Assembly (NCBI GenBank): GCA_021789215.1
Contig: JAJYJS010000003.1
Location: forward strand, 49,828 to 113,827
Reading direction: 5' to 3'
Length of the DNA: 64,000 bases
From: Nitrospirota bacterium
GTDB taxonomy: Bacteria > Nitrospirota > Thermodesulfovibrionia > Thermodesulfovibrionales > JdFR-88
Shown here: one piece after another, positions 43,959-63,615 of the stretch
How positions within the stretch are numbered: the first letter of the stretch is position 1
Layout of the letters: each line of letters opens with the position of its first letter
Position numbers and translations under genes: made by a program
Notes under the pieces: generated by a model
The model's database searches: none
Told to the model about the DNA's origin: nothing
The model's input: the letters and a program-made list of their open reading frames with translations, nothing else

Positions 43959-44052
43959 GAATAAAATAAGCTCCACGCAATGACTTTAAAGGAGTTTTTT
44001 TCAGCATTCTTTTTGAGAGGGGGCGAAAATTCCGCTGTGATAAGATTTACTC

Positions 44053-45267
44053 ATGATAACGGTGGAACAGCTTGGCGGAAGGCCCGTATGGGAAGAGTAT
44101 GCCGAGGCGGCCGAGAGGAAGGGTATTGGCCATCCGGACACCATCACGGACAGCATCTGCGAGGCCGTTTCAATCGCGCTCTCAAAAGAATACCTCAGCT
44201 CGGCGGGAAGGATACTGCACTACAACATAGACAAGGGGCTGTTGTCCGCCGGAACGGCCCGGAAGGATTTCCGTGGCGGGAAGGTGCTTAAGCCCATGCG
44301 CCTTTACATAGGCGACAGGGCGACATTCGAGTTCATGGGCAAAAAAATCCCGGTCCGGGAGGTCGCGGCCGGAGCCGCCAGAAAATGGATATCGGAGAAC
44401 CTGCGCTTCGTGGAGCCGGAACGCCACGTGCGCTGCAACGTGGTGCTCGCGCCGGGCTCCGCCCAACTGGCGAAGATATACACGAATGGGTCCGGCGTTC
44501 CGGCGGCAAACGACACCTCAGCCGCAACCGGATACTGGCCGCTTTCCCCCACCGAAGAGATGGTGCTTGCACTCGAAAAATACCTCAATTCAAAGGCCTT
44601 CAAAAACCGCTTCCCCGAAACCGGCGAAGACGTCAAGGTGATGGGCCTGAGGGAGGGCAGGCAGCTTTCCCTTACGGTCGCCATGCCGCTTGTGGACAGG
44701 TTCATACGCACGGAGGCCGAATATTTCGAGAGGAAACAGACGGTGCTTGAGATGATGGAAAGGTTCGTTGCGGCCCGCAACAGGGGCGCTTTCGATGACG
44801 TGCTGCTCTATTTCAACAGCCTCGACGAAAGGGGAAAGGGGCTTGCGGGCATATACCTGAGCGTGCTGGGCACCTCGGCCGAGGACGCCGACAGCGGCCA
44901 GGCAGGGCGCGGCAACAGGGTGAACGGGCTCATAAGCTTCTGCCGCCCCCAGGGGATGGAGGCCGCCGCCGGCAAAAACCCGAAAAGCCACGTGGGGAAG
45001 ATATATAACGTGCTCTCCTATAAGCTGGCCAGGAGGATTTACGAGGAAGTGGAGGGGCTGTCGGAGGCCTGCGTGCTGCTTGTCAGCAGGATAGGGCTTC
45101 CGGTAAACAGTCCGCCATTGGTTTCCGCCAGACTGAGGCTCAAAAAGGGCGTCCGCATCGGCGATGTCTCAGGCCCGGCGAGGGAGATAATCGAGGAAGA
45201 GCTTTCGGCGAAAAAGATTTCGTCCTTCACGCGGGAGCTTGCGCGGGGCAAATACAGCGTGTGCTAA
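44053..45267 (+). CDS. Archaeal-type S-adenosylmethionine synthetase (methionine adenosyltransferase)
   Basis: The protein is collinear with the archaeal MAT family as I remember it (M. jannaschii type): ERKGIGHPD, ANDTS, GEDVKVMGLREG, LGTSAEDADSGQAGRGNRVNGLI, MEAAAGKNPKSHVGKIYN. It lacks the bacterial MetK motifs. Confidence 0.85.
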   Translation: MITVEQLGGRPVWEEYAEAAERKGIGHPDTITDSICEAVSIALSKEYLSSAGRILHYNIDKGLLSAGTARKDFRGGKVLKPMRLYIGDRATFEFMGKKIPVREVAAGAARKWISENLRFVEPERHVRCNVVLAPGSAQLAKIYTNGSGVPAANDTSAATGYWPLSPTEEMVLALEKYLNSKAFKNRFPETGEDVKVMGLREGRQLSLTVAMPLVDRFIRTEAEYFERKQTVLEMMERFVAARNRGAFDDVLLYFNSLDERGKGLAGIYLSVLGTSAEDADSGQAGRGNRVNGLISFCRPQGMEAAAGKNPKSHVGKIYNVLSYKLARRIYEEVEGLSEACVLLVSRIGLPVNSPPLVSARLRLKKGVRIGDVSGPAREIIEEELSAKKISSFTRELARGKYSVC

Positions 45268-45653
45268 TAAACCGGCTGCCGCGAGAGCAGGGCAACAGCC
45301 CTTCTCTGCGCCTTTGTCCAGATAAGGCTTCCGCCAAACGCGAGCGCAAAGACCAGCACCAGTTTCACTATCAGAAGGTCCGTCCTTGAATGCCCCACGG
45401 CCGCCGCCCACTCATAGGAATGGAACATGAGCACCCTGGGTATGCCGCCAATCAGTATCCAGTAGAGGGAAATTCTTGCCAGTCGGGTCGTGTTCGCATG
45501 GAACCGGCTGAAATAAGCGGCCGATTCGGGGGACCAGTCCGCCTCGAAATGCCTTACGGCGGCCCACATCGCCACCCCGCTTGCCGCAAGCAGGGCCGCG
45601 GCGGCGTCATGAAGGAAGTTGCTCGCTATCAGCGCGACGATTAACAAACCCAT
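45264..45653 (-). CDS. Hypothetical 4-TM membrane protein
   Basis: 129-aa ORF with four hydrophobic helices and several conserved-looking His residues. It is convergent with the MAT gene (4-nt overlap). Confidence 0.5.
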   Translation of the reverse strand: MGLLIVALIASNFLHDAAAALLAASGVAMWAAVRHFEADWSPESAAYFSRFHANTTRLARISLYWILIGGIPRVLMFHSYEWAAAVGHSRTDLLIVKLVLVFALAFGGSLIWTKAQRRAVALLSRQPVY

Positions 45654-45747
45654 TTGTAATCTTATTATAAACGAAAAGGGGCCGCACGGGCCTCATTACA
45701 AAATAGGGCCGCATTGCGTGTATAATAAACGGCAGGGCTAAAGAAGA

Positions 45748-46746
45748 ATGTTCAGAAGATCCTCTTTATTTTTCTTTTTTTGCATGATCATTGCGGCCTT
45801 GGCGCTGGTTTCCTGCTCGCCGCCCCCCGTGGAGAAGCCCCCGGACCTCTGCTGGCCTTTCCCTCCGCAAAAACCGAGGATAAAGTTCGTTGACCTCGTA
45901 ATCGGCAGCCAGGACGCCACGGGCATAAGGGAGGGCAAGTTCAGCCGGATATTCTTTGGCGACGAGGGCGACATAAGGTTCTCCAAACCGGCCTTTGTGG
46001 CGTACAAGGACGGGGCAATGTATGTGACCGACATCAGGTCCCTGCACATCTTCGACTTCAAAAGGAAAAAATACATCGCGGCGGGAACGGACGTCCTGAT
46101 AACGCCGACCGGCGTGGCTGCGAATAACGAGGGGCAGGTGTTTGTAGGGGACTCTTCAAGAAAGGTTGTTTATATATTCAGCAGGCATGGCAGGCTGCTG
46201 GCCTCATTCGGAAGGTTCCAGTCCCCGTCGGGGATCGCGGTGGACGAAGCGAGACAGCACCTGATTGTGGCGGACGCAAAGGCGGACGACATCCAGGTCT
46301 TTGATTTCAAGGGCAACCTGCTGTTCAAATTCGGCAAGCGCGGGAAGGAAAAAGGCGAATTCAACATGCCCTACGGGGTGGCTGTGGACTCCAAAGGCAA
46401 TATCTGCGTCGTGGATTCCGGCAATTTCCGGGTCCAGATATTCGACAGCACAGGCAAGTTCATAAGCACGTTCGGCCATGTCGGCATAAACCCCGGCACA
46501 TTCGCCAGGCCCAAGGGTATCGCCCTGGATTCCGAGGGCCATATATACGTAGTCGATTCGGCCTTCGGCAATTTCCAGATATTTGACGAGCAGGGCAGGG
46601 TTTACCTTGTCGTAGGCTCCAACGGGTATGATGCCGGGCAGTTCCAGCTCCCCTTCGGCATCGCCATAAACTCCAGCGACATGATCTTCGTCGTTGACCA
46701 GGTGAACCGCAGGATCCAGGAGTTTCAATACCTCAAAGGGCACTGA
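45748..46746 (+). CDS. NHL-repeat beta-propeller lipoprotein
   Basis: Lipobox LALVS-C. There are five to six repeats of the NHL pattern (e.g. PSGIAVDEARQHLIVADAKADDIQVFD, PYGVAVDSKGNICVVDSGNFRVQIFD, PKGIALDSEGHIYVVDSAFGNFQIFD). A TATAAT lies at 45721-45726 upstream. Confidence 0.8.
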   Translation: MFRRSSLFFFFCMIIAALALVSCSPPPVEKPPDLCWPFPPQKPRIKFVDLVIGSQDATGIREGKFSRIFFGDEGDIRFSKPAFVAYKDGAMYVTDIRSLHIFDFKRKKYIAAGTDVLITPTGVAANNEGQVFVGDSSRKVVYIFSRHGRLLASFGRFQSPSGIAVDEARQHLIVADAKADDIQVFDFKGNLLFKFGKRGKEKGEFNMPYGVAVDSKGNICVVDSGNFRVQIFDSTGKFISTFGHVGINPGTFARPKGIALDSEGHIYVVDSAFGNFQIFDEQGRVYLVVGSNGYDAGQFQLPFGIAINSSDMIFVVDQVNRRIQEFQYLKGH

Positions 46747-46758
46747 AGCCCAAAGACT

Positions 46759-46787
46759 TTGACTTGTCTTGCCTTTATACCTACAAT
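46759..46787 (+). promoter_or_regulatory. Sigma70-type promoter of the tetraheme cytochrome gene
   Basis: TTGACT (46759-46764), a 17-nt spacer and TACAAT (46782-46787). An AAGGAGG RBS lies about 8 nt before the ATG at 46843. Confidence 0.5.
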
Positions 46788-46842
46788 TTGAGTATATTTT
46801 CCTTCCAGTATCAAAAAAAACCGAAAAAGGAGGGTTTTCCGC

Positions 46843-47421
46843 ATGAAAGCCGCAAAAAAGTTTTTTTTGCTCGCCGCTTTTTTCCTCATGATGCCGGTCG
46901 TGGCCTATGGCGCCGGCGCGCATGACGCCCTTAAGTGCACCGGGTGCCACTCGATGCACGACGCAAAGGGCGACGTCATTTTCGCTGTAAAGCCAAATAC
47001 GGGCACCAACCCGGACACCAAACAGCCTTATGAAGGTGTGACATCCCTTTGCCTTGGCTGCCATGAAACATCCGAGCACGGCGGTTTCGGCATCCTGCCC
47101 ATCTCCGCCCACAAGAGCCATCCTTTCGGCGTGGTCCCTAACCCGAGGATAGCCAAGGTGCCAGCCGAGCTGCTCAGGAACGGCAGGCTCGAATGCGTAA
47201 GCTGCCACGAGCCTCACCCGTCCAACAGCAATTACAAATATCTCCGCGTGGACACCAAAAAGCTGGGCATGGAGACCTTCTGCGCCGTCTGCCATCCCGA
47301 CAGGACGGACGCCTCCACAAAGGACGTAAAAATATTCGGCTTCGACAAGGGAGAGCAGGGGCCCGCGCAGGGAGCGGCACCAAAGCCCAAAGCCGCCCCC
47401 AAAGCAAAAACAACCAAATAG
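46843..47421 (+). CDS. Tetraheme cytochrome c with Lys/Pro/Ala-rich C-terminal tail
   Basis: Signal peptide (..VVAYG/AGA) and 4 CXXCH motifs (CTGCH, CLGCH, CVSCH, CAVCH). The C-terminal tail is GPAQGAAPKPKAAPKAKTTK. Confidence 0.85.
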   Translation: MKAAKKFFLLAAFFLMMPVVAYGAGAHDALKCTGCHSMHDAKGDVIFAVKPNTGTNPDTKQPYEGVTSLCLGCHETSEHGGFGILPISAHKSHPFGVVPNPRIAKVPAELLRNGRLECVSCHEPHPSNSNYKYLRVDTKKLGMETFCAVCHPDRTDASTKDVKIFGFDKGEQGPAQGAAPKPKAAPKAKTTK

Positions 47422-47449
47422 CTGATTCAAGAATAAAATATTAAAAAAC

Positions 47450-47481
47450 CCCTTCCCGAATCGGGAAGGGGTTTTTTTTCT
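47450..47481 (+). terminator. Intrinsic terminator after the tetraheme gene
   Basis: CCCCTTCCCGaatCGGGAAGGGG followed by a T9 run. Confidence 0.75.
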
Positions 47482-47583
47482 TTACTGCCCGGGACCGGGC
47501 AACTCCATCCCTCTGGACAGCGTTCAGGAAAGGAATGGAAAAATGCTGGCTGAAATGGTATATAATAGTAGCAATTTTTACTC

Positions 47584-50028
47584 ATGGATAAATTCATGAA
47601 GCACGCTTGCATGGTTGTCCTTGCGGCCGTCCTCCTGCTGGGGGCGGCGGGTATTTCTCGGGCGGAAGACGTAGATTGCCTGAGCTGCCACAAGGACATG
47701 GCCACGGGGAAGGACGTGCACCCCGCCGTATCCATGGGATGCACATCCTGCCACACCGGCGTGGACGCGACCCAGTTCCCGCACAAGTTCCAGGGCGACA
47801 AAGGTCTTTCAGCCGAGCCGCCGGATCTCTGCTTCGGCTGCCATGACAAGTCCAAGTTCACAGGCAAGGACGTTCACGCCCCCGTAAAAATGGGCATGTG
47901 CACGGCCTGCCATAACCCGCACAGGTCTGACAACAGAAAACTCCTTGTCTCGCTTCCACCGGACCTCTGCTTCGGCTGCCACAACAAGGAAAAGCTCACG
48001 GGCAAGCATATGGTGCACCCCCCGGTGGCCCAGGGGATGTGCACAAGCTGCCACAACCCCCATGCCTCCAATAACCCGAAGCTCCTCCTGGCGGAACCCC
48101 CGGACCTCTGCTTCAACTGCCACGACAAGGCGAAATTCAGCAAAAAAGACGTCCATCCGCCTGTTGCGGCGGGTATGTGCACAAGCTGCCACACCCCCCA
48201 TACAAGCGATAATAAGAGATTGCTGCTTGCGGAGCCGCCAAAGCTCTGCTTTACATGCCATGACGAGAAGAATTTTTCCGGCAAGGCCCATCAGCATCCG
48301 CCTGTTGCGGCGGGCATGTGCACCTCCTGCCATAACCCGCATTCAAGCGATAACGATAAGCTCCTGGCCGAGGCACCCCCGGCCCTGTGTTTCAACTGCC
48401 ATGATTCGAGCAAGTTCACCAAGGGCAAGAGCGTCCATCCGCCTGTTGCCGCCGGGATGTGCACAAACTGCCACGAGCCGCACCAGTCCGGACAGGACAA
48501 ACTCCTGAAGGCGGAGCCGCCGGAGCTCTGCTGGAACTGCCACGATAAAAACAGCCTAATGGCTGGCAAATTCCCGCACCCTCCGTTCGAGGCCGGGATG
48601 TGCCTGTCGTGCCACCAGCCGCACCGGTCGGATTCCGGAAAGCTGCTCGTCAAAGAGCCGCCGGAGCTGTGTTACGACTGCCACGACAAGTCCATGATGA
48701 AGGGCAAGGACCTTCACCCGCCCGTTGCCGCCGGGATGTGCACAAGCTGCCACAGCCCCCATGCGGGGAAGGCCCCCAAGGCGCTCCTTGAGGAGCCTCC
48801 GGCCCTCTGCTTTGGCTGCCATGACAAGGCCCAATTCTCGAAAAAGGACGTACATGCTCCCGTTGCCGCCGGGATGTGCACGAAATGCCACTTCCCGCAT
48901 GCGGGGGACTCAGACAAGCTGCTCAGGGCGGAGCCGCCAAAGCTCTGCTTCACCTGCCACGACAAAAACAAGTTTTCGGGCAAAAAGGATATTCACCCCC
49001 CGGTTGAGGCCGGGATGTGCACGACCTGCCATAACCCGCATTCAAGCGATACAAACAGGCTGCTGGCAAGCAATACGCCGGACCTCTGCTTCAATTGCCA
49101 CGACAAGAGCAAATTCACGATCGGCAATGCCGCGGCCAACGGGCCTTCCATTCATCCGCCCGTTGCCGCAGGGCTCTGCACCGGCTGCCACCAGCCGCAC
49201 CAGTCCGATACGGAAAAGCTGCTGAGGGCAGAGCCCCCGGACCTCTGCTTCAGATGCCATGACAAGAACATCATTATGGGCGGCAAGCACAAGCACCCGC
49301 CGGTCGAGGCCGGGATGTGCCTTTCCTGCCATCAGCCGCACAAGTCTGATGTCGCCAGAAAGCTCCTGGTGAAGAACCCTCCGGAGCTTTGTCTGGACTG
49401 CCATGACAAGGCGCTTGTTTCCGGCAAGAAGGACGTGCACCCGCCGGTTGCCGCGGGTCTTTGCACCTCCTGCCATAACCCGCACTCTTCGGCTTATCCC
49501 AAAATGCTGGTGCGGGATGTGCCCGAGCTGTGCTTTAAATGCCATGAAAAGGGCAAATTCACGGACATGAGGAGGATACACGGCCCGGCCAAGATAGGCA
49601 TGTGCCTTTTCTGCCACCAGCCGCACCAGTCGGAAAACAAGGGGCTCCTTCAAAAACCTGTGCCAGCGCTGTGCTTTACCTGCCACAGGCAGTCGCAGTT
49701 CACGCCGAGCCACCCGCATCCGCCGGTGCAGCAGGGCAAGTGCCTTGAGTGCCACGTGAAGCACTCCTCAAGGTATGCCTTCCTGTTGCAGAGGCCTGGA
49801 AACGAGACCTGCCGGAAATGCCACGCCGATATCTTCAACGGCCCCCACGCCGTTATGGTCATCGGCACAGGCCACCCGCTGAGCGGGCCGCGCGATCCCA
49901 GGAGACCGAACAGGCGGTTTGGATGCGCCAGCTGCCATAACCCGCACGGCTCCGAGAGCATGAAGATATTCAGGTACAAGGTCAAAAAAGACCCGTATGA
50001 GCTGTGCATCAACTGCCATCCAAAATAG
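47584..50028 (+). CDS. 33-heme (33 x CXXCH) multiheme cytochrome c composed of tandem doubled-CXXCH modules
   Basis: 814-aa ORF with a signal peptide (..GISRA/ED). I counted 33 CXXCH motifs by hand. There are 14 tandem 46-47-aa units between a 2-heme N-cap and a 3-heme C-cap. A TATAAT-like box at 47560-47565 lies upstream. Confidence 0.9.
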   Translation: MDKFMKHACMVVLAAVLLLGAAGISRAEDVDCLSCHKDMATGKDVHPAVSMGCTSCHTGVDATQFPHKFQGDKGLSAEPPDLCFGCHDKSKFTGKDVHAPVKMGMCTACHNPHRSDNRKLLVSLPPDLCFGCHNKEKLTGKHMVHPPVAQGMCTSCHNPHASNNPKLLLAEPPDLCFNCHDKAKFSKKDVHPPVAAGMCTSCHTPHTSDNKRLLLAEPPKLCFTCHDEKNFSGKAHQHPPVAAGMCTSCHNPHSSDNDKLLAEAPPALCFNCHDSSKFTKGKSVHPPVAAGMCTNCHEPHQSGQDKLLKAEPPELCWNCHDKNSLMAGKFPHPPFEAGMCLSCHQPHRSDSGKLLVKEPPELCYDCHDKSMMKGKDLHPPVAAGMCTSCHSPHAGKAPKALLEEPPALCFGCHDKAQFSKKDVHAPVAAGMCTKCHFPHAGDSDKLLRAEPPKLCFTCHDKNKFSGKKDIHPPVEAGMCTTCHNPHSSDTNRLLASNTPDLCFNCHDKSKFTIGNAAANGPSIHPPVAAGLCTGCHQPHQSDTEKLLRAEPPDLCFRCHDKNIIMGGKHKHPPVEAGMCLSCHQPHKSDVARKLLVKNPPELCLDCHDKALVSGKKDVHPPVAAGLCTSCHNPHSSAYPKMLVRDVPELCFKCHEKGKFTDMRRIHGPAKIGMCLFCHQPHQSENKGLLQKPVPALCFTCHRQSQFTPSHPHPPVQQGKCLECHVKHSSRYAFLLQRPGNETCRKCHADIFNGPHAVMVIGTGHPLSGPRDPRRPNRRFGCASCHNPHGSESMKIFRYKVKKDPYELCINCHPK
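47815..49755 (+). repeat. Intragenic tandem repeat array (about 138-141-nt period, 14 units) encoding the doubled-CXXCH modules
   Basis: The 15-mer ccggacctctgcttc recurs exactly at 47959, 48100, 49078 and 49237, with one mismatch at 47821. It occurs again at 50291 and 50430 in the downstream paralogue. Confidence 0.85.
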
Positions 50029-50071
50029 ACTGGTCCACTTTTCAATGCAATTGCAAAAGGAGTTTTGAGAG

Positions 50072-50794
50072 ATGAGGATTTCAGCTGTTGTGGTCATTTT
50101 CATGACACTCTGCCTTGCGGGGGTCTCCCGCGCGGCGGAGGTCGACTGCGTTTCATGCCACAAGGATTTGACCGAGGGGAAGACCGTCCACCCGGCCGTG
50201 ATGATGGGTTGCGCCGTCTGCCACACAGGCGTGGACGCAACCAAGGTGCCCCACAAGTTCACCGGCAAGCTGGGTCTGGCCGCTGAGCCGCCGGACCTCT
50301 GCTTCAATTGCCATAAGCGCGAGGACTTTATCGCCGCTGACGTCCACCCTCCGGTGAGCATGGGCATGTGCACCTCCTGCCATAACCCCCACAGGTCAGA
50401 CCAGCCGAAACTCCTCATAGCGCCAATACCGGACCTCTGCTTCAACTGCCATGAAAAGCAGGAGTTCACTAAAAAAGACGTCCACGCGCCGGTCAAGGCC
50501 GGCCAATGCCTGAAATGCCATATGCCGCATGTCAGCCCGAATTCCAAGCTGCTCCAGAAAAAGGGCGTCTTCCTGTGCAGGCAATGTCATGCTAACATTG
50601 AGAGGCAGGTCCATGTTGTAGCGGGTTTCTCCTCCGCGGGCCATCCGCTCAAGGGCAAACAGGACCCCCTCAGGAAGGGCAAGCCTTTTGAATGCCTGAG
50701 TTGCCACGTGCCGCATTCCTCGGACTGGGGAAGGCTGTTCAGGTACAAGGCCAACGATGCATTCGGTTTGTGCAACTACTGTCATAAATTTTAG
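50072..50794 (+). CDS. Nonaheme cytochrome c, short paralogue of the 33-heme protein
   Basis: Signal peptide (..GVSRA/AE) and 9 CXXCH motifs. The N-cap and C-cap align with those of the 33-heme protein, with only 2 internal doubled units. An AAGGAG RBS is present, and the gene starts 43 nt after the upstream stop. Confidence 0.9.
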   Translation: MRISAVVVIFMTLCLAGVSRAAEVDCVSCHKDLTEGKTVHPAVMMGCAVCHTGVDATKVPHKFTGKLGLAAEPPDLCFNCHKREDFIAADVHPPVSMGMCTSCHNPHRSDQPKLLIAPIPDLCFNCHEKQEFTKKDVHAPVKAGQCLKCHMPHVSPNSKLLQKKGVFLCRQCHANIERQVHVVAGFSSAGHPLKGKQDPLRKGKPFECLSCHVPHSSDWGRLFRYKANDAFGLCNYCHKF

Positions 50795-50808
50795 TTTTTA
50801 GGGAAGGT

Positions 50809-51330
50809 ATGACCTCACTGAAGGTCTTTTTCTTATCGGCGGCGATGGCTTTTGCCGTGTTTTGCTCCGGGACGGCCATGGCCGCCGGCAAGACGGATTT
50901 CGAGCTTGGCGTGGCGGGCGGGGCAAGCCTGAACGGCATCAAGACCACCCAGTTCATGGTGCTTGGGGCTTGGTCGCGGACCCTGTATCCGGACCTGCTG
51001 CTGAGGGCGGAGCCGACTTTTGAGGTGCTCTCCTCTGATGAAAACACCCTGTATGTGGGCGGGGCATCCCTTGTACTGAGGGCGCTCGCCCCGTACAAGA
51101 CCGTTACGCCGTTCGTTGACATGGGGGCCGGGCTGAACGCCACGTCTTCCAGCCATTTCGATAACCGGAGGCTTGGAGGGGATTTCCTCTTCGACCTGGT
51201 TCTGGGAGGCGGCGTCATCGTCAAGGACTTCAGCATCTCCTACCGGTACAGGCACCTCTCGAACGCTGGCATATTCAAGCTGAACGAGGGCGCGGACTCC
51301 TTCTACATACTCCTGGGCTACAGGCTCTGA
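50809..51330 (+). CDS. Small outer-membrane beta-barrel protein, PagL/acyloxyacyl-hydrolase-like
   Basis: Signal peptide (..GTAMA/AG) and an alternating amphipathic strand pattern. YRYRHLSNAG resembles the His-x-Ser motif of lipid A deacylase PagL-family barrels. The gene starts 14 nt after the 9-heme gene. Confidence 0.6.
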   Translation: MTSLKVFFLSAAMAFAVFCSGTAMAAGKTDFELGVAGGASLNGIKTTQFMVLGAWSRTLYPDLLLRAEPTFEVLSSDENTLYVGGASLVLRALAPYKTVTPFVDMGAGLNATSSSHFDNRRLGGDFLFDLVLGGGVIVKDFSISYRYRHLSNAGIFKLNEGADSFYILLGYRL

Positions 51331-51428
51331 GAACCGCCGCCCGTGGCCAGTCCCTTTAGGTTATAATAATCGAAACAAAACAGTTGAAAATTCATTTATA
51401 AAACATTTCATTGGGAGGTCTTTCCGTA

Positions 51429-52595
51429 ATGGTTAAGGTCGAGATGTCCTCAAGGGTGCGCCATCTTCCGCCCTATCTTTTCGCCGAGATAGACAGGCTC
51501 AAGCAGGAGGAGCTGAAAAAAGGCGTCGACATAATAGACCTGAGCATAGGCGACCCCGATATCCCCACGTCTTCCCATATAGTTGAATCACTGAGGAAGG
51601 CCGCGGGCAACAGCAGAAACCATCGTTATCCGTCCTATGAGGGGCTGCTTTCATTCAGGCAGGCGGTTGCGGACTGGTATAGAAAGCGCTTCGGAGTGGG
51701 GCTTGACGCAGGCTCCGAGGTGCTTTCGCTGATAGGCTCCAAGGAGGGCATAGGGCATATACCGCTTGCCTTCGTGGAGGGCGGGGATGTTGTGCTCTAT
51801 TCTTCTCCGGGTTATCCGGTCTATCCCGTGGGCACCATGTTTGCCGGTGCGGAAGGCCATCCGATGCCGCTTTTTGAGAAAAACGGCTTTCTGCCCGATT
51901 TCAGCGCCATACCCGCGGATATCCTTAAAAGGGCGAAACTGATGTTCATAAACTATCCCAACAACCCGACTTCGGCATCGGCTGGAAAGGATTTTTTCAG
52001 CCAGGTGGTGGAGTTCGCAAACAGGCACAACATAATAGTCTGCCATGACGCGGCCTATTCGGAGATTTACTATGACGGCAAAAGGCCCGCCAGCTTCCTG
52101 GAGGCTCCGGGGGCAAAGGAGGTTGGCATAGAGTTCCACTCCCTTTCAAAGACTTATAACATGACCGGCTGGAGGCTCGGGTTCGCCGTGGGGCACAGAG
52201 ATGTCATTGCCGGGCTTGGGAAGGTGAAGTCCAACCTGGACTCCGGCGTGTTCCAGGCCGTTCAGGAGGCGGGCATCACCGCGCTCGAAACCGGCGACGA
52301 TGTCCTTTCCGGCATCAGGGACACCTACCAGCAGAGGAGGGACGCGCTCTATGAGGGCCTGAAGGGCATAGGCCTCCACGCGATAAAGCCCGAGGCAACA
52401 TTCTATCTCTGGACGAAATGCCCTGAGGGTTTTGACTCCAGGGGGTTTGCAAGGCATATCCTCGAAAAATCCGGCGTGCTGGCCACCCCCGGCGTGGGCT
52501 TTGGCGCCCCCGGCGAGGGCTATATCCGCTTCGCCCTGACGGTAGATGTCAAAAGGATAAAAGAGGCCGTCGAGCGGATAAGAAAAGCCATATGA
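51429..52595 (+). CDS. dapL: LL-diaminopimelate aminotransferase-like class I aminotransferase
   Basis: HLPPYLFAEIDRLK, IIDLSIGDPD, YPNNPT and SLSKTYNMTGWRLG (PLP lysine) motifs. The ATG at 51429 lies behind a GGGAGG RBS. Confidence 0.7.
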   Translation: MVKVEMSSRVRHLPPYLFAEIDRLKQEELKKGVDIIDLSIGDPDIPTSSHIVESLRKAAGNSRNHRYPSYEGLLSFRQAVADWYRKRFGVGLDAGSEVLSLIGSKEGIGHIPLAFVEGGDVVLYSSPGYPVYPVGTMFAGAEGHPMPLFEKNGFLPDFSAIPADILKRAKLMFINYPNNPTSASAGKDFFSQVVEFANRHNIIVCHDAAYSEIYYDGKRPASFLEAPGAKEVGIEFHSLSKTYNMTGWRLGFAVGHRDVIAGLGKVKSNLDSGVFQAVQEAGITALETGDDVLSGIRDTYQQRRDALYEGLKGIGLHAIKPEATFYLWTKCPEGFDSRGFARHILEKSGVLATPGVGFGAPGEGYIRFALTVDVKRIKEAVERIRKAI

Positions 52596-52659
52596 ATCAC
52601 CTGCGGCTAGCCGTAGAGTATCCAAACTATTGAAACCTGTAATATTGATGCCTGTACTT

Positions 52660-52742
52660 GTCATTCCGGGCTTGACCCGGAATCCAGCGGCTTTATTTGC
52701 TTTTTGGGAAAGCCACTGGATACCGGCTTCCGCCGGCATGAC
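52660..52742. repeat. Composite palindromic intergenic element, family B, full copy
   Basis: GTCATTCCGGGcttgaCCCGGAATccagcggctttatttgctttttgggaaagccactggataCCGGCttccGCCGGcATGAC. It has nested hairpins and GTCAT/ATGAC termini. Confidence 0.7.
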
Positions 52743-52812
52743 ATACAAACCGCAAACATCAATGAACCCTGTGGCAAGCTGCAGGGGAATTTTAAGTTAA
52801 ATTTTGTTCTTC

Positions 52813-53271
52813 ATGGCGCTTGCCTCTATCGGGATAGGCTCCAACCTTGGCGGCAAAAAGGCAAACTGCCTTCGCGCGCTCCAGTTGCTCAAGGCAAAGG
52901 GCATCCAGATAAAAGCGGTCTCATCAGCCTGGGACACAAAACCCTGGGGCAGGCAAGAGCAGCCGGACTTCGTCAACATGGCGGCCGTTATCGAAACCGG
53001 CCTCAGCCCTGCCGGGCTTCTTGAAAAACTCCTGGAGACGGAAAACGAGATGGGGCGGGTCAGGACGGAGCGCTGGGGGCCCCGGATAATAGACCTGGAC
53101 CTGCTGCTCTACGGTGATGAGGTAATAGACACTCCCGCGCTCAAGGTCCCCCATCCCCTCATGCAGGAAAGGGAGTTCGTGCTGAGGCCGCTTGCGGAGA
53201 TAGCGCCGGACGCGGTGCATCCGGTGCTAAAAAAAACCATAAGAGAGCTGTTGGAGGCGCTGCGCGACTAG
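52813..53271 (+). CDS. folK: 2-amino-4-hydroxy-6-hydroxymethyldihydropteridine diphosphokinase (HPPK)
   Basis: IGIGSNLG, PDFVNMAA, ERWGPRIIDLDLLLYG, PHPLMQEREFVLRPL motifs. Confidence 0.85.
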   Translation: MALASIGIGSNLGGKKANCLRALQLLKAKGIQIKAVSSAWDTKPWGRQEQPDFVNMAAVIETGLSPAGLLEKLLETENEMGRVRTERWGPRIIDLDLLLYGDEVIDTPALKVPHPLMQEREFVLRPLAEIAPDAVHPVLKKTIRELLEALRD

Positions 53272-53299
53272 TGTAGGACCCGCCTCAAAATTGCTCTTT

Positions 53300-53361
53300 C
53301 CATCAGCGGCTTATTTGCCTTTTTGGGAAAGTCACTGGATGCCGGCTCCCGCCGGTATGAC
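53300..53361. repeat. Family B element, 5'-truncated copy, same orientation
   Basis: ccatcagcggcttatttgcctttttgggaaagtcactggatGCCGGctcccGCCGGtATGAC. It aligns with 52683-52742 with a few substitutions or indels. Confidence 0.7.
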
Positions 53362-53396
53362 AGACTTTCAACTAAATACCGGTTTTGAGATAAGTT

Positions 53397-55802
53397 CTAA
53401 TCCTTTTCCGCAACCTTCCCGATGCCCACTATCCTGTCGCCCTCTTCCAGGTCCATGAGCTTGACCCCCTGGGTGTTCCTGCCGATGATGGATATCCCCT
53501 CGGCGGGCATCCTTATGGTCTTTCCGGACTGGGTTATGAGCATCACCTCATCCTCGTCCCGCACTTTCATGAGCCCGACGGCGTTGCCGCCCTTGTCGGT
53601 GACCTTTATCGAGATAACGCCTTTGCCGCCCCTGCCCTGCACGGGATAGTCCTCTATGCGGGAGCGCTTGCCGAGTCCCTTTTCCGTTATGGTGAGGAGG
53701 AGGTTTTTCTCCTCCACCATGTCGGCGGAGACTACCTCGTCGTCCTTTGTGAGCCTTATGCCTATGACCCCCTTTGCCGTCCTGCCCATCGGACGCACGT
53801 CCTCCTCGTTAAATCTTATCGAAAGGCCCTTCATCGTGCCGATTATGAGGTCGTTCGTGCCGGAGGTGCGCTTCACGGAGATAAGCTCGTCTGCCTCGTC
53901 GAGCGAGATGGCGATTATGCCTTTCCCGCGCGGGTTGCTGTATTCGGAAAGCGGGGTCTTCTTTACGGTGCCTTTCTTGGTAAAGAAGACGAGGTTGCCT
54001 TCCTTGAACTCCCTTACGGGAAGCGCGGTGCTCACACGCTCGCCCTCAGAAAGCGCAAGCAGGTTCACAATGGCCTTGCCCTTGGCCGCCCTCCCGGCCT
54101 CCGGTATCTGGTAAATCTTGAGCCAGTAGAGCCTGCCCAGGTTTGTGAAGAAGAGCATGTAGTCGTGAGTGGAGCCTATGAAGAGCTGCTCCACGTAGTC
54201 CTCCTCGCGCGTCTCCATGCCGATAAGTCCCTTGCCGCCCCTGCGCTGGCTGCGGTAGGCCGATATGGGGTTGCGCTTTATGTAGCCGTTGTGGGATATG
54301 GTGATGACCATCTCCTCCTCGGAGATGAGGTCTTCCATCGTGATGTCCTTCGTGGCCTGGGTTATGTCCGTGCGCCGCTCGTCGCTGTATTTCTCTTTTA
54401 TCTCAAGGAGCTCCTCCTTGATAATCTGTTTCTGGAGCGTCTCGCTGGCAAGGATGTCCTTAAGGTGCGCTATCTCACGTAACGTCTCCTCGTACTCCAA
54501 GATTATCTTCTCGCGCTCAAGGCCGGTGAGCCGCTGCAATTTCATGTCGAGGATGGCCTGCGCCTGTATCTCCGTCATGGAGTAATTTTCCATGAGGCCC
54601 TGCCTGGCCTCCTCCGGGTTCCCGGCGGCGCGGATGAGGGCTATTACCTCGTCAAGGTGCTCGATGGCTATCTTGAGCCCTTCGAGTATGTGGGCCCTCT
54701 CCTCGGCCTTCTTCAGCTCGAACCGGGTGCGCCGGATGACAACGTCCCGCCTGTGCTGGAGGAAGTAGTTCAGCATCCTCTTAAGGCTCAGCACGCGCGG
54801 CTGCCCGCCCACCAGCGAGAGCATGATTACGCCGAAGGTGGACTCCATCTGCGTGTGCTTGTAGAGGTTATTGAGCACCACCTCGGACATCTCCCCGCGC
54901 TTCAGTTCCACTACTATGCGGATGCCGTCCCTGTCGGACTCGTCCCTCAGGTCCGACACGCCCTCGATGCGTTTTTCGCGCACAAGTTCCGCTATCTTCT
55001 TTATGAGGCTGGACTTGTTCACCTGATAAGGTATCTCGGTGATGATTATGTTCTCGCCGCCCTTGTGCTCCCTCTCGATGCGGGCCTTCGCCCTGACCCT
55101 TATGAGCCCCCTGCCGTTTGTGTAGGCGTTCACTATGCCCTCTGTGCCATGTATCACGCCCCCGGTGGGGAAGTCCGGCCCCTTGATGGCCGTCAAGAGT
55201 TCCGGCACCTGCACGTCCGGGTTTTCAAGCACCATCACAAGCCCGTCCACGACCTCCGCAAGGTTATGGGGCGGAATGTTGGTGGCCATGCCCACGGCTA
55301 TGCCTGCCGAGCCGTTTACAAGCAGGTTCGGCACCCTTGTGGGCAGAACGGCCGGTTCGGTCGTGGTCTCGTCGAAGTTCGGGATGAAATCGACCGTGTC
55401 TTTATCTATGTCCCTTAAAAGCTCCTCGGCTATCTTTGAAAGCCTGGCCTCTGTGTACCTGTATGCGGCGGCGGGGTCTCCGTCTATGGAGCCGTAGTTG
55501 CCCTGGCCGTCTATCAATGGGGCGCGCATGTTGAAGTCCTGCGCCAGCCTGACCATCGCGTCGTAAACGGCGGAGTCGCCGTGCGGGTGATATTTTTTCA
55601 GCACCTCGCCCACGACACCGGCGGATTTGGAGTACTTGCGGTTGGGCAGGAGGCCCTCCCGGAACATGGCGTAGAGGATCCTTCTCTGAACGGGTTTGAG
55701 GCCGTCCCTTACCTCTGGCAGCGCACGCCCGATGATCACGCTCATGGCGTAATCGAGATAAGAGACCTTCATCTCCTCTTCTATGTTTACCTGCATCTTC
55801 AT
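53397..55802 (-). CDS. gyrA: DNA gyrase subunit A
   Basis: 801-aa ORF with [29 protein letters not shown], the active-site Tyr context [11 protein letters not shown] and C-terminal beta-pinwheel repeats. Confidence 0.95.
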
Positions 55803-55906: not shown

Positions 55907-56905
55907 TTAGAAGGGTTTTATGGTGAAAGTGAACCTGGACACCCCGCCGTGGCCGTCGCTGGCCAGGACGGTTACAGTGGTATCGTCCTTGAGGCCGGGG
56001 GGCGCCTTCCATGTTATCAGCCCCCTGGCGGGGTCGATGGTCATGCCCCTGGGCGCCGACTCAAGCGAATAGGTCAGTGTATCGCCATCCGGGTCGGTGG
56101 CGTTCGCCTGGCCCACGTATTCCGTGCCGTTGAAGGACATCTCGACCCGGGGGCTGAACATCGGCGGCATGTTGGCTATCTTCCTTTCAAGAATGACGGG
56201 CTGGCCGCAGTCCTGCCCGTTGCAGGCGGTTATCCTTACCTTTATCTCATCGTTTCTTTTGACGGGCATGTCCAGCCTGCTTTTGTTTCCCGCAGGCGTC
56301 CCGTTTACCGTCCACTCGTAAACGATTTCGGCCCCGCTGTCAGCCGCGGCGTCGACATAGAGTTTATTGTCGCCGGGCTTGAAGACCTCCGGCATCAGCT
56401 TCACGCTCCTGACCTCGGGGGGCGCGTCCTCGACCGTTACGGGACCGGACTTGACCTCGACGCCGTTTATTTTGGCGACTGCCTGGACAACGTCGCCTTT
56501 TAGTGCGCCGGAGGTGTCAAATTCATTAGGCGTGGAGACCGGCCTTTCAATACCGTTTACATACCAGGTAATGTTGGCAATGCCTGGCGCGTTGAACCCC
56601 TGGCAGATTACGTGCAGTTTGGAGTTCCTGTAAGCCCTCTGTGGGATTATCTCGATGGCGTAGCCGCCGCTCGCGGCCTGGGACGAGTTGGCGGAAGCGG
56701 CGGGAACGGTTTCTTGCTTCTGGACTGCCGTGGCCGCCGTCTGGTCCGTGGCGTTCTCACCGGAACGGAACGCGAAGACCATAAGCACTATGGCGCCCAA
56801 CGCGCACGCCACGGCGAGCGCGGGCAACAAGACCCCTTTTTTCCTCAGCCCCCTTAAGACGGCGGTCAGCGATTTTATTTTATCTGAAAGCTCTTCCATA
56901 TCCAT
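55907..56905 (-). CDS. Membrane-anchored protein with Ig/cadherin-like extracytoplasmic domains
   Basis: N-terminal TM anchor (LLPALAVACALGAIVLMVFAF). The C-terminal domain ATDPDGDTLTYSLESAPRGMTIDPARGLITWKAP matches the 'putative Ig'/dystroglycan-cadherin-like pattern. It is the last gene of the minor-pilin operon. Confidence 0.6.
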   Translation of the reverse strand: MDMEELSDKIKSLTAVLRGLRKKGVLLPALAVACALGAIVLMVFAFRSGENATDQTAATAVQKQETVPAASANSSQAASGGYAIEIIPQRAYRNSKLHVICQGFNAPGIANITWYVNGIERPVSTPNEFDTSGALKGDVVQAVAKINGVEVKSGPVTVEDAPPEVRSVKLMPEVFKPGDNKLYVDAAADSGAEIVYEWTVNGTPAGNKSRLDMPVKRNDEIKVRITACNGQDCGQPVILERKIANMPPMFSPRVEMSFNGTEYVGQANATDPDGDTLTYSLESAPRGMTIDPARGLITWKAPPGLKDDTTVTVLASDGHGGVSRFTFTIKPF

Positions 56906-56931
56906 GAGTCCGGCCTCCCCTCTCTTCAGCC

Positions 56932-57519
56932 TCAGTATTCATAAATCACGGAAAGCCTGGAGCGTTCGGACGGGTTCGTCTGGCTTTGCGAAAGCACCTC
57001 CATCGTATACACGGAAGGCCTGCTTGCAACCGGGACATCCCCGGTGTTCGACGAGACGACGCCGGTCTTGACCAGCCCGGGGACGCCGCCCGTATTCCCG
57101 GCGATGGTGTCCACAACCTTCGTATAAACCCTGTAATTGCCCAGGTCCACGCTCATGTCGTATGTAGCGTTATCTGTTGAATTGATTATCCAGGACTTGC
57201 TGGATGCCCCGCAGCCTGCGGGCCAGTTTGCCGTGGAGTTTACCAGCTTGGCCGCCAGGCAGGCGTTGTTGGGAATGGTCTCGTTCACATTATTAAGCGT
57301 GGCGGCGCCGCCGCTGGCTATCAGCTGGGTTGCCGCCGACACGCCGCCCATCCCGGCCTCCAGGACGTTGGAGTACCGCCCCTGCATTCCGGCGACCTGC
57401 GTGCCGGTGAGGGTCATGTAAATGAGGGCGGACATCATCATCAGGGCCACGGCGGAAAGCAAAAGCACTATGACAAGGGCTATGCCGGACTCGTCTTTTA
57501 TGACTTTCGTGAATTTCAT
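56932..57519 (-). CDS. PilX/GspK-like minor pseudopilin (no Glu5)
   Basis: MKFTKVIKDESG/IALVIVLLLSAVALMMMSALIY: a hydrophobic N-terminal helix without Glu at +5, as in PilX/GspK-type subunits. The start lies 2 nt after the upstream stop. Confidence 0.6.
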   Translation of the reverse strand: MKFTKVIKDESGIALVIVLLLSAVALMMMSALIYMTLTGTQVAGMQGRYSNVLEAGMGGVSAATQLIASGGAATLNNVNETIPNNACLAAKLVNSTANWPAGCGASSKSWIINSTDNATYDMSVDLGNYRVYTKVVDTIAGNTGGVPGLVKTGVVSSNTGDVPVASRPSVYTMEVLSQSQTNPSERSRLSVIYEY

Positions 57520-57521
57520 GC

Positions 57522-58595: not shown

Positions 58596-58600
58596 TTCCC

Positions 58601-58990
58601 TTATGATGACGTCCCCGGCCTTCTTATTATCGTCGATACCGCATGCGAGTAGTTCCGCCCCTTCCAGGTCCAAAACACAGTGATTGTCACCTGCTTGTTG
58701 TCCGGGGCGGCATCGAGGTTTACCACGGTGGTGTTCACGGAAAAAGGCACGGTCATGTTCCTGAAGCTCCTGTCCACTACGACGGGGCCTCCGCTCGCCA
58801 CATTATTGAAAAGCGTGTTCCTGGCGTCATTCATGTCCATTGCGCCTATTTTTATGGCCTCGTTGCGGAGCATGTTGCTGACGTTGGTGTCCAGCGACAG
58901 GAGGGATGTCTGCAAAAGGGCCATGAAGACGAAAAGGAACAGGGCCATCGCGATGAGGACCTCCACAAGCGATACGCCTTTCCTGTCCAA
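58601..58990 (-). CDS. PilV/GspI-like type IV minor pilin
   Basis: The inferred TTG start at 58990 gives the leader MDRKG/VSLVEVLIAMALFLF with Glu5. The ORF is open to 59056 but would then overlap the upstream gene. Confidence 0.65.
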   Translation of the reverse strand: MDRKGVSLVEVLIAMALFLFVFMALLQTSLLSLDTNVSNMLRNEAIKIGAMDMNDARNTLFNNVASGGPVVVDRSFRNMTVPFSVNTTVVNLDAAPDNKQVTITVFWTWKGRNYSHAVSTIIRRPGTSS

Positions 58991-58997
58991 CGGCTTT

Positions 58998-59492: not shown

Positions 59493-59495
59493 CTT

Positions 59496-63605: not shown

Positions 63606-63615
63606 TGCAAATACC

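What the first reader, a model, noticed from the sequence alone, without database searches (positions are those of the whole stretch)
47584..50794. Tandem long and short paralogues (33 vs 9 hemes) share end caps and differ only in repeat number
The 9-heme protein encoded 43 nt downstream has the same N-cap. Compare AAEVDCVSCHKDLTEGKTVHPAVMMGCAVCHTGVDATKVPHKF with AEDVDCLSCHKDMATGKDVHPAVSMGCTSCHTGVDATQFPHKF. It also has the same C-cap (C..CHA....H......GHPL.G..DP.R....F.C.SCH.PH.S.....FRYK......LC..CH), but only 2 internal units instead of 14. The arithmetic is 2+4+3 = 9 and 2+28+3 = 33. The exact 15-mer ccggacctctgcttc occurs 4 times in the long gene and 2 times in the short one. The array is therefore a substrate for unequal recombination. 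This looks like a length-tunable module, with two 'rulers' of different length expressed from one operon. It may also be a hotspot for population-level repeat-number variation.
Basis: seen in the sequence. Interest (0 to 1): 0.7.

Follow-up and report, generated by a model that had tools for sequence, protein, structure and literature searches.

The report
Paired long and short heme wires
Two neighbouring genes in an uncultured Nitrospirota bacterium encode electron-carrying 'heme wire' proteins with matching ends but 33 versus 9 hemes; the length difference is real, old and stable, so this is not an actively changing repeat.

Summary
ORF 47584-50028 (814 aa, 33 CxxCH) and ORF 50072-50794 (240 aa, 9 CxxCH) lie 43 nt apart. 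Both are built as an N-cap (2 hemes), n di-heme units (14 vs 2) and a C-cap (3 hemes). The 15-mer occurs 4+2 times. Both are Paired_CXXCH_1 proteins. The closest solved relative of the short one is MtrA (6R2Q).

Related Nitrospirota loci carry the same NHL-propeller / long / short cluster, some at the same genomic position. Their heme counts differ: long 19-45, short 9-17, nearly always 2+2n+3. So length has been tuned between lineages by duplication of internal units. In this genome a 5-unit (10-heme) block was duplicated.

The array is not a present-day recombination hotspot:
- Units are only 47-77% identical in DNA, and the longest exact repeat is 27 nt.
- Fourfold sites between the duplicated blocks are near saturation.
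- Three other assemblies that span or nearly span the array are collinear with the window, with no indels.
- A species whose long protein is only 57% identical also has 33+9.

The C-caps separate long and short partners into distinct groups, so the gene pair is ancient.

The likely role is part of a periplasmic or extracellular electron conduit. This is inferred, not shown. I rate it a new variant of a known kind.

The parts
45264..45653 (-). 129-aa hydrophobic ORF, divergently oriented. Probably a small membrane protein; membership of the cluster is uncertain.
   Evidence: ORF. No Pfam or NCBIfam hit. A homologue sits at the same place in L009. Transmembrane character was judged by eye only.
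45748..46746 (+). NHL-repeat beta-propeller with a lipoprotein-type signal (…LALVSC). It is the near-constant partner of the capped cytochromes.
   Evidence: PF01436 NHL, E 4e-32. An NHL homologue flanks all ten tandem pairs and most single-copy loci. Upstream DNA is missing or not examined for some later loci, e.g. L089.
46843..47421 (+). Secreted tetraheme cytochrome (192 aa) with a Lys/Pro/Ala-rich tail. Its N-terminal part resembles OmcS weakly.
   Evidence: 4 CxxCH. Best PDB sequence match is OmcS 6EF8, whole-sequence E 1.7e-4 but best single stretch only E 0.18. Homologues lie upstream of the long gene in L009, L010, L012 and L022, and one is cut at the contig end in L089.
47443..47477 (+). 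Strong intrinsic-terminator-like hairpin (16-bp stem, then a T run) between the tetraheme gene and L.
   Evidence: sequence. Conservation in other loci could not be established.
47584..50028 (+). L: 814-aa, 33-heme Paired_CXXCH_1 cytochrome with a Sec-type signal peptide.
   Evidence: The identical protein is encoded in independent assemblies.
47584..47805 (+). L signal peptide plus N-cap (hemes 1-2).
   Evidence: 69% identical to the S N-cap, E 2e-21.
47806..49785 (+). L array: 14 di-heme units of 46-53 aa (138-159 nt, all multiples of 3).
48085..48783 (+). Block A: units 3-7 (10 hemes), first copy of an old 5-unit duplication.
   Evidence: Units i and i+5 are best or near-best partners at 69-74% aa. 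The blocks are 72% identical in aa and in nt. Several exact 20-27-mers recur at 699-nt spacing.
48784..49506 (+). Block B: units 8-12 (10 hemes), second copy.
   Evidence: Same as for block A.
49507..50025 (+). Constant C-terminal module of long partners: units 13 ('HGP' type) and 14 ('CH-RxS-F' type) plus the 3-heme C-cap, 7 hemes in all.
   Evidence: Units 13 and 14 best match the last two units of most other long partners compared, whereas internal units do not. In alignment A3 of 11 long partners, mean column identity is 62%.
50072..50794 (+). S: 240-aa, 9-heme paralogue with a signal peptide and an AAAGGAG Shine-Dalgarno sequence 8 nt upstream. N-cap 50072-50275, two units 50276-50551, C-cap 50552-50791.
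   Evidence: Profile match to MtrA 6R2Q_A, E 1.3e-20. AlphaFold2 model pLDDT 92.8. Foldseek top hit 6r2q_A, TM 0.53.
50809..51330 (+). PagL-like small outer-membrane beta-barrel (173 aa), starting 14 nt after S.
   Evidence: PF09411, E 6.8e-18. Found in the same position in L009, L019 and L020.

Best explanation
L and S are an ancient tandem pair of secreted, MtrA-type linear heme wires.

Architecture. Each protein is an N-terminal connector (2 hemes), a run of di-heme Paired_CXXCH units, and a C-terminal connector (3 hemes). There are enough histidines for both axial positions of every heme to be His (inferred from counts). In long partners the last two units are also constant.

How length changes. 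Length changes when internal units, or blocks of units, are duplicated in frame. In this lineage one 5-unit (10-heme) block was duplicated long ago. The resulting 33-heme length has since been kept.

Gene cluster. The pair belongs to a conserved Nitrospirota (Thermodesulfovibrionia-type) cluster: NHL lipoprotein, OmcS-like tetraheme, L, S, PagL-like barrel.

Proposed role (inferred, not shown). The cluster is part of a periplasmic or extracellular electron-transfer route. Using the published rule of about 27 hemes per 200 Å, L is about 24 nm long, enough to bridge a periplasm. S is about 7 nm, the MtrA size class. The shared caps are the docking ends, so wires of two lengths can plug into the same partners.
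For: Shown:
- Architecture and cap homology.
- Family assignment: PF09699 with 16 and 4 stretches, and TIGR01905. The S family matches MtrA 6R2Q_A by sequence profile at E 1.3e-20. A pLDDT 92.8 model gives Foldseek probability 1.00 and TM 0.53 over 230 columns.
- His count is 71 for 33 hemes in L and 18 for 9 hemes in S, enough for bis-His ligation.
- Real sequence: collinear in three other assemblies that span or nearly span the array.
- Ancient pair: in the C-cap tree all short partners form one clade separate from the long partners. The order long-then-short on one strand holds in all 10 tandem loci.
- Internal growth zone: units 13 and 14 have positional counterparts in most other long partners compared. 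Units 2-11 of L best match units of L itself.
- Block duplication: period-5 signal, 699-nt spaced exact matches, 72% aa and nt identity with fourfold sites at 44% vs 33% random.
- Length conserved within lineages but different between them. Positional orthology comes from the flanking aminotransferase and folK genes.
- The C-cap holds more invariant non-ligand residues (about 12 in 80 aa) than the units (about 6 in 92 aa) in alignment A1, as expected for a docking or special site.

Inferred:
- Length. Edwards et al. report a linear relation between heme number and length, with about 27 hemes needed for about 200 Å of periplasm (PMC7096707).
- Role. The same gene combination (MtoA-like cytochrome, OmcE-like or tetraheme cytochrome, NHL proteins) occurs in proposed electron-transfer clusters. 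Examples are uet in Ca. Tenderia (bioRxiv 10.1101/2022.05.06.490989), Geoalkalibacter (PMC12016550) and D. ferrophilus (PMC9769857).
Against: - No porin of MtrB size and no quinol dehydrogenase is conserved within about 8 kb in any of ten tandem loci. Neither the way across the outer membrane nor the electron source is visible.
- Localisation is not known beyond the signal peptides.
- Deleting NHL-associated cytochrome clusters in D. ferrophilus did not impair Fe(III) oxide reduction (PMC9769857). The physiological role of such clusters is therefore unproven.
- The length estimate is an extrapolation. The model coordinates could not be measured, and L itself was not modelled.
- The long partner ranges from 19 to 45 hemes (about 14-33 nm). 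That is wider than a single fixed periplasmic gap would predict.
Confidence: 0.6

Rival explanations
1. Contingency-type locus. The array is a present-day hotspot of unequal recombination, so that cells in one population carry different repeat numbers.
For: - Units are in frame (138-159 nt) and share short exact stretches up to 27 nt, including the 15-mer six times.
- Block copies within one genome (72% in the window, 63.5% in L089) are more alike than same-position units between the two genomes (62.7% and 55.6%). This could reflect past gene conversion.
- N-caps of L and S cluster by genome in L007 and L019/L020.
- In JdFR-86 the 45-heme array has units up to 95% identical and a 77-nt exact repeat.
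Against: - Unit DNA identity is 47-77% and TRF finds no array.
- Synonymous sites between blocks are near saturation.
- There are no indels in three other assemblies that span or nearly span the array.
- 33+9, 21+9 and 19+13 are each conserved between separate species.
Confidence: 0.05
2. Assembly artefact. The 33-heme gene is a chimeric or mis-joined assembly of repeats.
For: Two public assemblies break inside the L gene, at window positions 49628 and 49501.
Against: - Three other assemblies span or nearly span the array and give a collinear sequence. Two encode the identical 814-aa protein, and the third starts 80 nt into the gene with one mismatch.
- No exact repeat exceeds 27 nt, so the k-mers used in short-read assembly resolve the array.
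- A 57%-identical orthologue has the same 14-unit layout.
Confidence: 0.02
3. Outer-membrane conduit plus extracellular wire. S acts like MtrA and crosses the outer membrane, while L (like the variable extracellular cytochrome of PCC3) projects from the cell surface. It may connect to filaments of the OmcS-like tetraheme.
For: - S is of MtrA size and fold.
- In PCC3 the extracellular cytochrome varies from 10 to 35 hemes (PMC10734462).
- The tetraheme resembles OmcS weakly and is followed by a strong terminator, as expected for an abundant subunit.
- A pseudopilin gene follows the cluster in L008, and minor-pilin/PilY1-like genes lie 5 kb away in the window.
Against: - No large porin lies in or near the cluster. 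The only barrel is a PagL-like protein of 173 aa.
- The OmcS similarity is weak (E 1.7e-4; best stretch 0.18).
Confidence: 0.2
4. Electron storage. The many hemes serve as a periplasmic capacitor, and length has no geometric meaning.
For: A capacitor role has been proposed for large multiheme cytochromes (PMC10734462). Total heme content differs widely between lineages, from 28 to 62 per pair.
Against: - The caps are conserved and distinct.
- The 2+2n+3 rule holds almost without exception.
- Counts are conserved over deep divergence, and a 42-heme count is fixed in a sister family.
These features point to selection on a defined architecture, not on bulk heme.
Confidence: 0.13

Closest known systems
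MtrA / MtoA / PioA / DmsE decaheme cytochromes (TIGR03508; structure 6R2Q chain A)
   Same: Built from the same Paired_CXXCH di-heme units. It is the best solved sequence match to the S family (E 1.3e-20) and the best fold match (TM 0.53). The S C-cap region aligns with the C-terminal hemes of MtrA.
   Different: - 9 or 33 hemes instead of 10.
- S scores 88 bits against the family cut-off of 192.
- Distinct conserved caps (GHP…DPxR…FxCxSCHxPHxS…RY).
- No MtrB-type porin gene next to it.
uet cluster of Ca. Tenderia electrophaga (UetJ undecaheme, UetA tetraheme, UetH/I NHL proteins)
   Same: A rod-like cytochrome with a doubled-CXXCH motif sits together with a tetraheme cytochrome and NHL propellers. 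11-heme members of the capped family exist. A related NHL / cytochrome / 9-heme module occurs in a betaproteobacterial Aquincola MAG.
   Different: - The window has none of the uet genes for a PPIase, triheme c7 proteins, a cupredoxin or a UetC-type barrel.
- Here the wire gene is duplicated into a long and a short copy.
PCC3 predicted porin-cytochrome complex of iron oxidisers (periplasmic 21-27 hemes; extracellular 10-35 hemes)
   Same: Two long, linear multiheme cytochromes are encoded side by side. Heme number varies between genomes. A periplasm-spanning role has been proposed (PMC10734462; PMC7096707).
   Different: [quoted passage not shown] No shared-cap architecture or 2+2n+3 rule has been described for PCC3.
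GSU1996-type modular 'nanowire' cytochromes of Geobacter (c7-type triheme repeats)
   Same: Both follow the principle of a rod made from tandem copies of a small multiheme module. This comparison rests on my own knowledge and was not tested here.
   Different: The repeat unit is different: triheme c7 domains there, di-heme Paired_CXXCH units here.
42-heme Paired_CXXCH cytochromes and their 26+16 split form
   Same: They are the closest long relatives of L by score (30-36% identity) and are also followed by NHL genes. Heme count is strongly fixed: 69 of the 120 best hits have exactly 42. In one clade the wire is encoded as a tandem long-plus-short pair.
   Different: - There the pair is a collinear split of one wire. 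The 26-heme protein maps to hemes 1-26 and the 16-heme protein to hemes 27-42.
- In the window, S has its own copy of the N-cap, and L and S do not map in a unique register on the 42-heme protein.

Membership tests
Paired_CXXCH_1 (PF09699 / TIGR01905) | About 41-residue domain with two CXXCH motifs, present in several copies and scoring above the curated cut-off. | tested here: met
   L scores 710 bits with 16 stretches and S 145 bits with 4 stretches, against a cut-off of 20.6. TIGR01905 scores are 657 and 134 bits against 25.2.
DmsE/MtrA decaheme family (TIGR03508) | Whole-protein score above the curated cut-off (192.2 bits) for a single ~258-position match. | tested here: not met
   S scores 88.2 bits. 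L reaches 518 bits only by summing 9 partial stretches.
DmsE/MtrA decaheme family (TIGR03508) | Ten hemes. | tested here: not met
   9 and 33 CxxCH.
DmsE/MtrA decaheme family (TIGR03508) | MtrA-like elongated fold. | tested here: met
   The model of S has pLDDT 92.8. Foldseek's top hit is 6r2q_A at E 2.2e-6, TM 0.53/0.48 over 230 columns.
DmsE/MtrA decaheme family (TIGR03508) | Adjacent MtrB/DmsF-type large beta-barrel gene. | tested here: not met
   No conserved large barrel lies within about 8 kb in ten tandem loci. The only barrel is a 173-aa PagL-like protein.
GSU2203 family decaheme (NF041028) | Score above 325 bits as one full-length match. | tested here: not met
   S scores 68 bits. L scores 345.8 bits, but from 8 partial stretches.
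uet cluster (UetA-J) | A rod-like doubled-CXXCH cytochrome together with NHL proteins and a tetraheme cytochrome. | tested here: met
   NHL at 45748-46746, tetraheme at 46843-47421, then L and S. Definition.
uet cluster (UetA-J) | PPIase UetB, barrel UetC, three c7 trihemes and cupredoxin UetF in the cluster. | tested here: not met
   None lie between 44053 and 52595. A SurA-like PPIase is present only in the different L008-type locus.
uet cluster (UetA-J) | Sequence homology of S or L to UetJ. | not testable with these tools
   The UetJ sequence is not in any accessible collection, and NCBI marks it a pseudogene.
PCC3 | Porin plus a conserved inner-membrane protein encoded with two long cytochromes. 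| tested here: not met
   No porin is conserved. The 129-aa membrane ORF occurs in only 2 loci.
OmcS/OmcE filament cytochromes (tetraheme gene only) | Sequence or fold homology to OmcS/OmcE, and inter-subunit His ligation. | tested here: inconclusive
   OmcS 6EF8 scores E 1.7e-4 for the whole sequence, but the best stretch is only E 0.18. No model was made.

The most novel reading that the evidence does not exclude
The capped Paired_CXXCH proteins may be natural molecular rulers. The caps would be fixed connectors that dock to the same partners (NHL propeller, OmcS-like tetraheme, or each other). The number of di-heme units would be selected to match a physical distance.

On this reading one operon supplies a wire of about 7 nm and a wire of about 24 nm with interchangeable ends. 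The same logic would explain the invariant 42-heme wires in other phyla and their 26+16 split form. It may also be no accident that 33+9 and 29+13 both total 42. In that case L and S would join head to tail into a 42-heme conduit.
Probability: 0.2. Interest if true: 0.7.

Novelty: new variant of a known kind. Interest (0 to 1): 0.4.

Why it matters
- Extending one shared scaffold by two hemes at a time gives a natural length series: 9, 11, 13 … 33, 45 hemes.
- That series could be used to test how electron flux depends on wire length.
- It could show which residues make the docking ends.
- It could show whether very long cytochromes really bridge the periplasm, an idea proposed for iron oxidisers but untested.
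- It places a conserved, porin-less, NHL-associated electron-transfer cluster in uncultured Thermodesulfovibrionia-type Nitrospirota, common in subsurface and sediment metagenomes.
- For annotation, the long gene is easily lost. It has no Pfam record in the public gene table, and some assemblies break inside it.

Tried and rejected
- AlphaFold2 on S with a 19-sequence alignment failed (pLDDT 43). A 120-sequence alignment worked.
- Model coordinates are not exposed to scripts, so the rise per heme could not be measured.
- Protein searches with L and with its C-terminal 173 aa did not return L itself or its close orthologues. The first returned mainly distant proteins of about 1050 aa, and the second only 42 candidates.
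- The exhaustive representative search was dominated by long repeat proteins. It showed only that the superfamily is large (2074 clusters at E ≤ 1e-10).
- I tested whether L+S is a split of the 42-heme family. The 26+16 pairs map collinearly, but L and S map in many registers equally well. I therefore treat 33+9 = 42 as unexplained or coincidental.
- Conservation of the terminator after the tetraheme gene in other loci was inconclusive, because the start codons of the long genes are uncertain.
- Rfam found nothing above threshold in 44000-53500.
- Tandem Repeats Finder found no array.
- I found no description of this cluster in Nitrospirota in the searched literature.
- Convergent origin of the two genes is rejected. 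The caps match specifically and the units share codon-level identity.


Full report
**Observation.** The region holds two same-strand ORFs. L is 47584-50028 (814 aa) and S is 50072-50794 (240 aa), separated by 43 nt. L has 33 CxxCH motifs and S has 9. Neither has a variant motif, and inside the arrays the motifs are 23-24 residues apart.

Cutting before every odd motif shows the same plan in both:
- a signal peptide and an N-cap with 2 hemes;
- di-heme units of 46-53 aa, 14 in L and 2 in S;
- a C-cap with 3 hemes.

The caps are specific counterparts. The S N-cap hits L 27-74 at 69% identity (E 2e-21), with the next best place at E 6e-5. The S C-cap hits L 735-812 at 46% identity (E 9e-16), with the next best at E 3e-6.

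The 15-mer occurs exactly as stated, six times, against none in shuffles. It encodes PDLCF. Six of seven PDLCF motifs use identical codons, against about 0.8 expected from codon usage.

**Is the sequence real?** The identical 814-aa protein is encoded on contigs from Logan SRR33270670 and ENA ERZ27233565. ENA ERZ27237587 covers all but the first 80 nt of the gene. All three are collinear with the window, with no indels and at most one mismatch. Two further assemblies break inside L, but what they hold is collinear with no indels. No exact repeat in the two genes exceeds 27 nt. An assembly artefact is very unlikely.

**What the proteins are.**
- Both are Paired_CXXCH_1 proteins: PF09699 with 16 and 4 stretches, and TIGR01905.
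- A profile of 19 nine-heme homologues finds MtrA of the Shewanella Mtr complex (6R2Q chain A) at E 1.3e-20.
- An AlphaFold2 model of S built on 120 homologues is confident (pLDDT 92.8). Its only significant Foldseek match is 6r2q_A (TM 0.53 over 230 columns).
- Histidine counts (71 in L, 18 in S) allow bis-His ligation of every heme.
- They are not members of the decaheme family proper. S scores 88 bits against a cut-off of 192, the heme number is not ten, and there is no MtrB-type porin gene.

**Surroundings.** The cluster is bounded upstream by SAM synthetase (44053-45267) and, on the opposite strand, a 129-aa hydrophobic ORF. It is bounded downstream by an aminotransferase, folK and gyrA. 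Its genes are:
- an NHL-repeat lipoprotein (45748-46746);
- a secreted tetraheme cytochrome (46843-47421) whose N-terminal part weakly resembles OmcS (E 1.7e-4);
- a strong terminator-like hairpin (47443-47477);
- L, then S with a good Shine-Dalgarno sequence;
- 14 nt later, a PagL-like small outer-membrane barrel (50809-51330).

System II cytochrome c biogenesis genes (ResB and CcsA, 35402-38052) lie about 8 kb upstream. The short protein is named in NCBI as coming from a Nitrospiraceae MAG.

**Related loci.** A scan of species-representative genomes with the nine-heme profile gave 79 loci, nearly all Nitrospirota/Thermodesulfovibrionales MAGs. With cap HMMs, 85 proteins carry both caps. Their heme counts are:

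| Hemes | 9 | 11 | 13 | 15 | 17 | 19 | 21 | 23 | 29 | 33 | 45 |
|---|---|---|---|---|---|---|---|---|---|---|---|
| Proteins | 24 | 7 | 13 | 19 | 5 | 4 | 6 | 2 | 1 | 1 | 1 |

Only two proteins have even counts, so the rule 2+2n+3 is general.

Ten loci have a long gene directly followed by a short one on the same strand:

| Locus | Long + short |
|---|---|
| Window | 33+9 |
| L007 | 23+9 |
| L009, L010, L012 | 21+9 |
| L013 | 29+13 |
| L019, L020 | 19+13 |
| L022 | 45+17 |
| L032 | 23+13 |

Contig look-ups and a metagenome scan add L089 (33+9), L088 (19+9) and L097 (27+11).

An NHL gene flanks the pair in all ten loci. The tetraheme and the PagL-like gene are frequent. The same aminotransferase and folK genes follow in the window, L019, L020 and L022, and the aminotransferase also follows in L007 and L089. 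These are positional orthologues. No large barrel or quinol dehydrogenase is conserved nearby.

**Age of the pair.** In a tree of C-caps all short partners form one clade, and the long partners fall outside it. L and S therefore diverged before these lineages split. N-caps sometimes group by genome (L007; L019/L020, where the last 33 residues differ at two positions). This suggests either gene conversion between the tandem genes or co-evolution with a shared partner.

**How the array grew.**
- Within L, unit i and unit i+5 are best or near-best partners for i = 3-7, at 69-74% aa identity.
- Several exact 20-27-mers recur at 699-nt spacing.
- Aligned as blocks, units 3-7 and 8-12 are 72% identical in both protein and DNA. 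Fourfold-degenerate sites are 44% identical, against 33% expected at random.
- One 10-heme block was therefore duplicated long ago.
- Compared with other long partners, units 13 and 14 usually best match the last two units, and unit 1 often best matches the first. Units 2-11 best match other units of L itself.
- The middle is thus a lineage-specific growth zone. The last two units plus the cap form a constant 7-heme module (alignment A3).
- In the 45-heme protein of JdFR-86 the middle units are up to 95% identical in DNA, with a 77-nt exact repeat. Expansion is more recent there.

**Stability.**
- L089, whose aminotransferase is 74% and whose L is 57% identical to the window's, has the same 14-unit layout. 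The two L proteins align collinearly over 817 columns with 11 gap positions. The distinctive 'LCW' units sit at positions 6 and 11 in L089; the window has one at 6, and its unit 11 is LCF.
- Block copies within each genome (72% and 63.5%) are more alike than same-position units between genomes (62.7% and 55.6%; cross-position 57%). This fits an ancestral duplication followed by some homogenisation. Two parallel duplications cannot be excluded.
- L010 and L012 (64% identical) both have 21+9. L019 and L020 both have 19+13.
- Together with the invariant assemblies, a unit DNA identity of 47-77% and the failure of Tandem Repeats Finder to see any array, this argues against a present-day hotspot.

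**Mechanism.** The following is shown:
- a secreted, MtrA-like, probably all bis-His wire family with fixed ends and a variable middle;
- an ancient long/short pair;
- constant association with an NHL lipoprotein.

The following is inferred:
- Using the published linear relation (about 27 hemes for about 200 Å; PMC7096707), S is about 7 nm and L about 24 nm. L is therefore long enough to bridge a periplasm. Long partners in other lineages would span about 14-33 nm.
- The C-cap holds roughly twice the density of invariant non-ligand residues of the units. It aligns with the C-terminal hemes of MtrA. This is consistent with a docking end.
- The gene combination matches proposed electron-transfer clusters elsewhere: uet in Ca. 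Tenderia, a Geoalkalibacter locus with MtoA-like, OmcE-like and two NHL proteins, and NHL-linked cytochrome clusters in D. ferrophilus.
- Against a firm functional claim: no porin or quinol oxidase is linked, and deleting the D. ferrophilus clusters did not impair Fe(III) oxide reduction.

**Comparison and novelty.** Long linear cytochromes with variable heme numbers are known from PCC3, with 10-35 hemes and a proposed periplasm-spanning subunit. What appears undescribed is:
- the capped 2+2n+3 architecture;
- the conserved tandem long/short pair in Nitrospirota;
- the internal growth zone with a constant 7-heme C-terminal module.

I rate this a new variant of a known kind, of moderate interest. 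The dynamic 'hotspot' reading is not supported for this genome.

Noticed in passing
P0121-P0240 (hits to L); loci L117, L134, L136, L144, L162, L166, L145, L147, L167: A widespread sister family in Zixibacteria, Krumholzibacteria, Gemmatimonadota, Latescibacterota and others. 69 of the 120 best hits to L have exactly 42 CxxCH motifs. One clade encodes tandem 26+16 pairs followed by an NHL gene. The 26-heme protein maps to hemes 1-26 of a 42-heme protein and the 16-heme protein to hemes 27-42, so a 42-heme wire is split in two.
   Followed up: partly
window 47584-50794; L013; L089: The pair totals are 33+9 = 42 and 29+13 = 42, the same as the fixed count of the sister family. Other pairs total 28-62, and L and S do not map in a unique register on 42-heme proteins. 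It may be coincidence.
   Followed up: partly
window 47443-47477: A very strong hairpin (16-bp stem) with an A run before it and a T run after it follows the tetraheme gene. It could terminate transcription in both directions and set a high tetraheme-to-wire transcript ratio.
   Followed up: partly
L022 6417-9545 (MAG Nitrospirae bacterium JdFR-86): A 45-heme long partner has 44-aa units that are up to 95% identical in DNA and a 77-nt exact repeat. This is a much younger expansion than in the window, and a better candidate for copy-number variation or assembly collapse.
   Followed up: partly
L008, L011, L014, L016, L017, L021; L071 (Aquincola MAG): A second locus type has the order (PPIase) NHL, tetraheme with a 'TKHNLS' N-terminus, heptaheme, capped 9/11-heme, NHL. 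In L071 the tetraheme and heptaheme are fused into one 11-heme protein. In L008 a GspG-like pseudopilin gene follows.
   Followed up: no
window 35402-38052 (-): System II cytochrome c biogenesis genes (ResB 522 aa, CcsA 360 aa) lie next to a HAMP histidine kinase, about 8 kb upstream of the cytochrome cluster.
   Followed up: no
window 55907-63638 (-): A cluster of type IV pilus minor-pilin-like genes (N_methyl, PilW), a 1380-aa protein with a weak PilY1 match, and an Ig-domain protein lies 5 kb downstream of the cytochromes, beyond gyrA.
   Followed up: no
window 47584-50028: The long protein has no precomputed Pfam record in the public gene table ('-'). Two protein searches did not retrieve it, although it is on record by exact look-up. 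Very repetitive cytochromes may be under-represented in word-indexed searches.
   Followed up: no
L007, L013, L022, L032 (gene directly after S, opposite strand): A 290-342-aa protein, with a cNMP_binding domain in L007, replaces the PagL-like gene next to the short partner in four tandem loci. It may be a Crp/Fnr-type regulator of the cluster.
   Followed up: no
window 47800-50600 (-): Many long ORFs on the opposite strand overlap L and S, for example 49042-49764 and 49768-50547. They are by-products of the repetitive, GC-rich coding sequence and have no support as genes.
   Followed up: no
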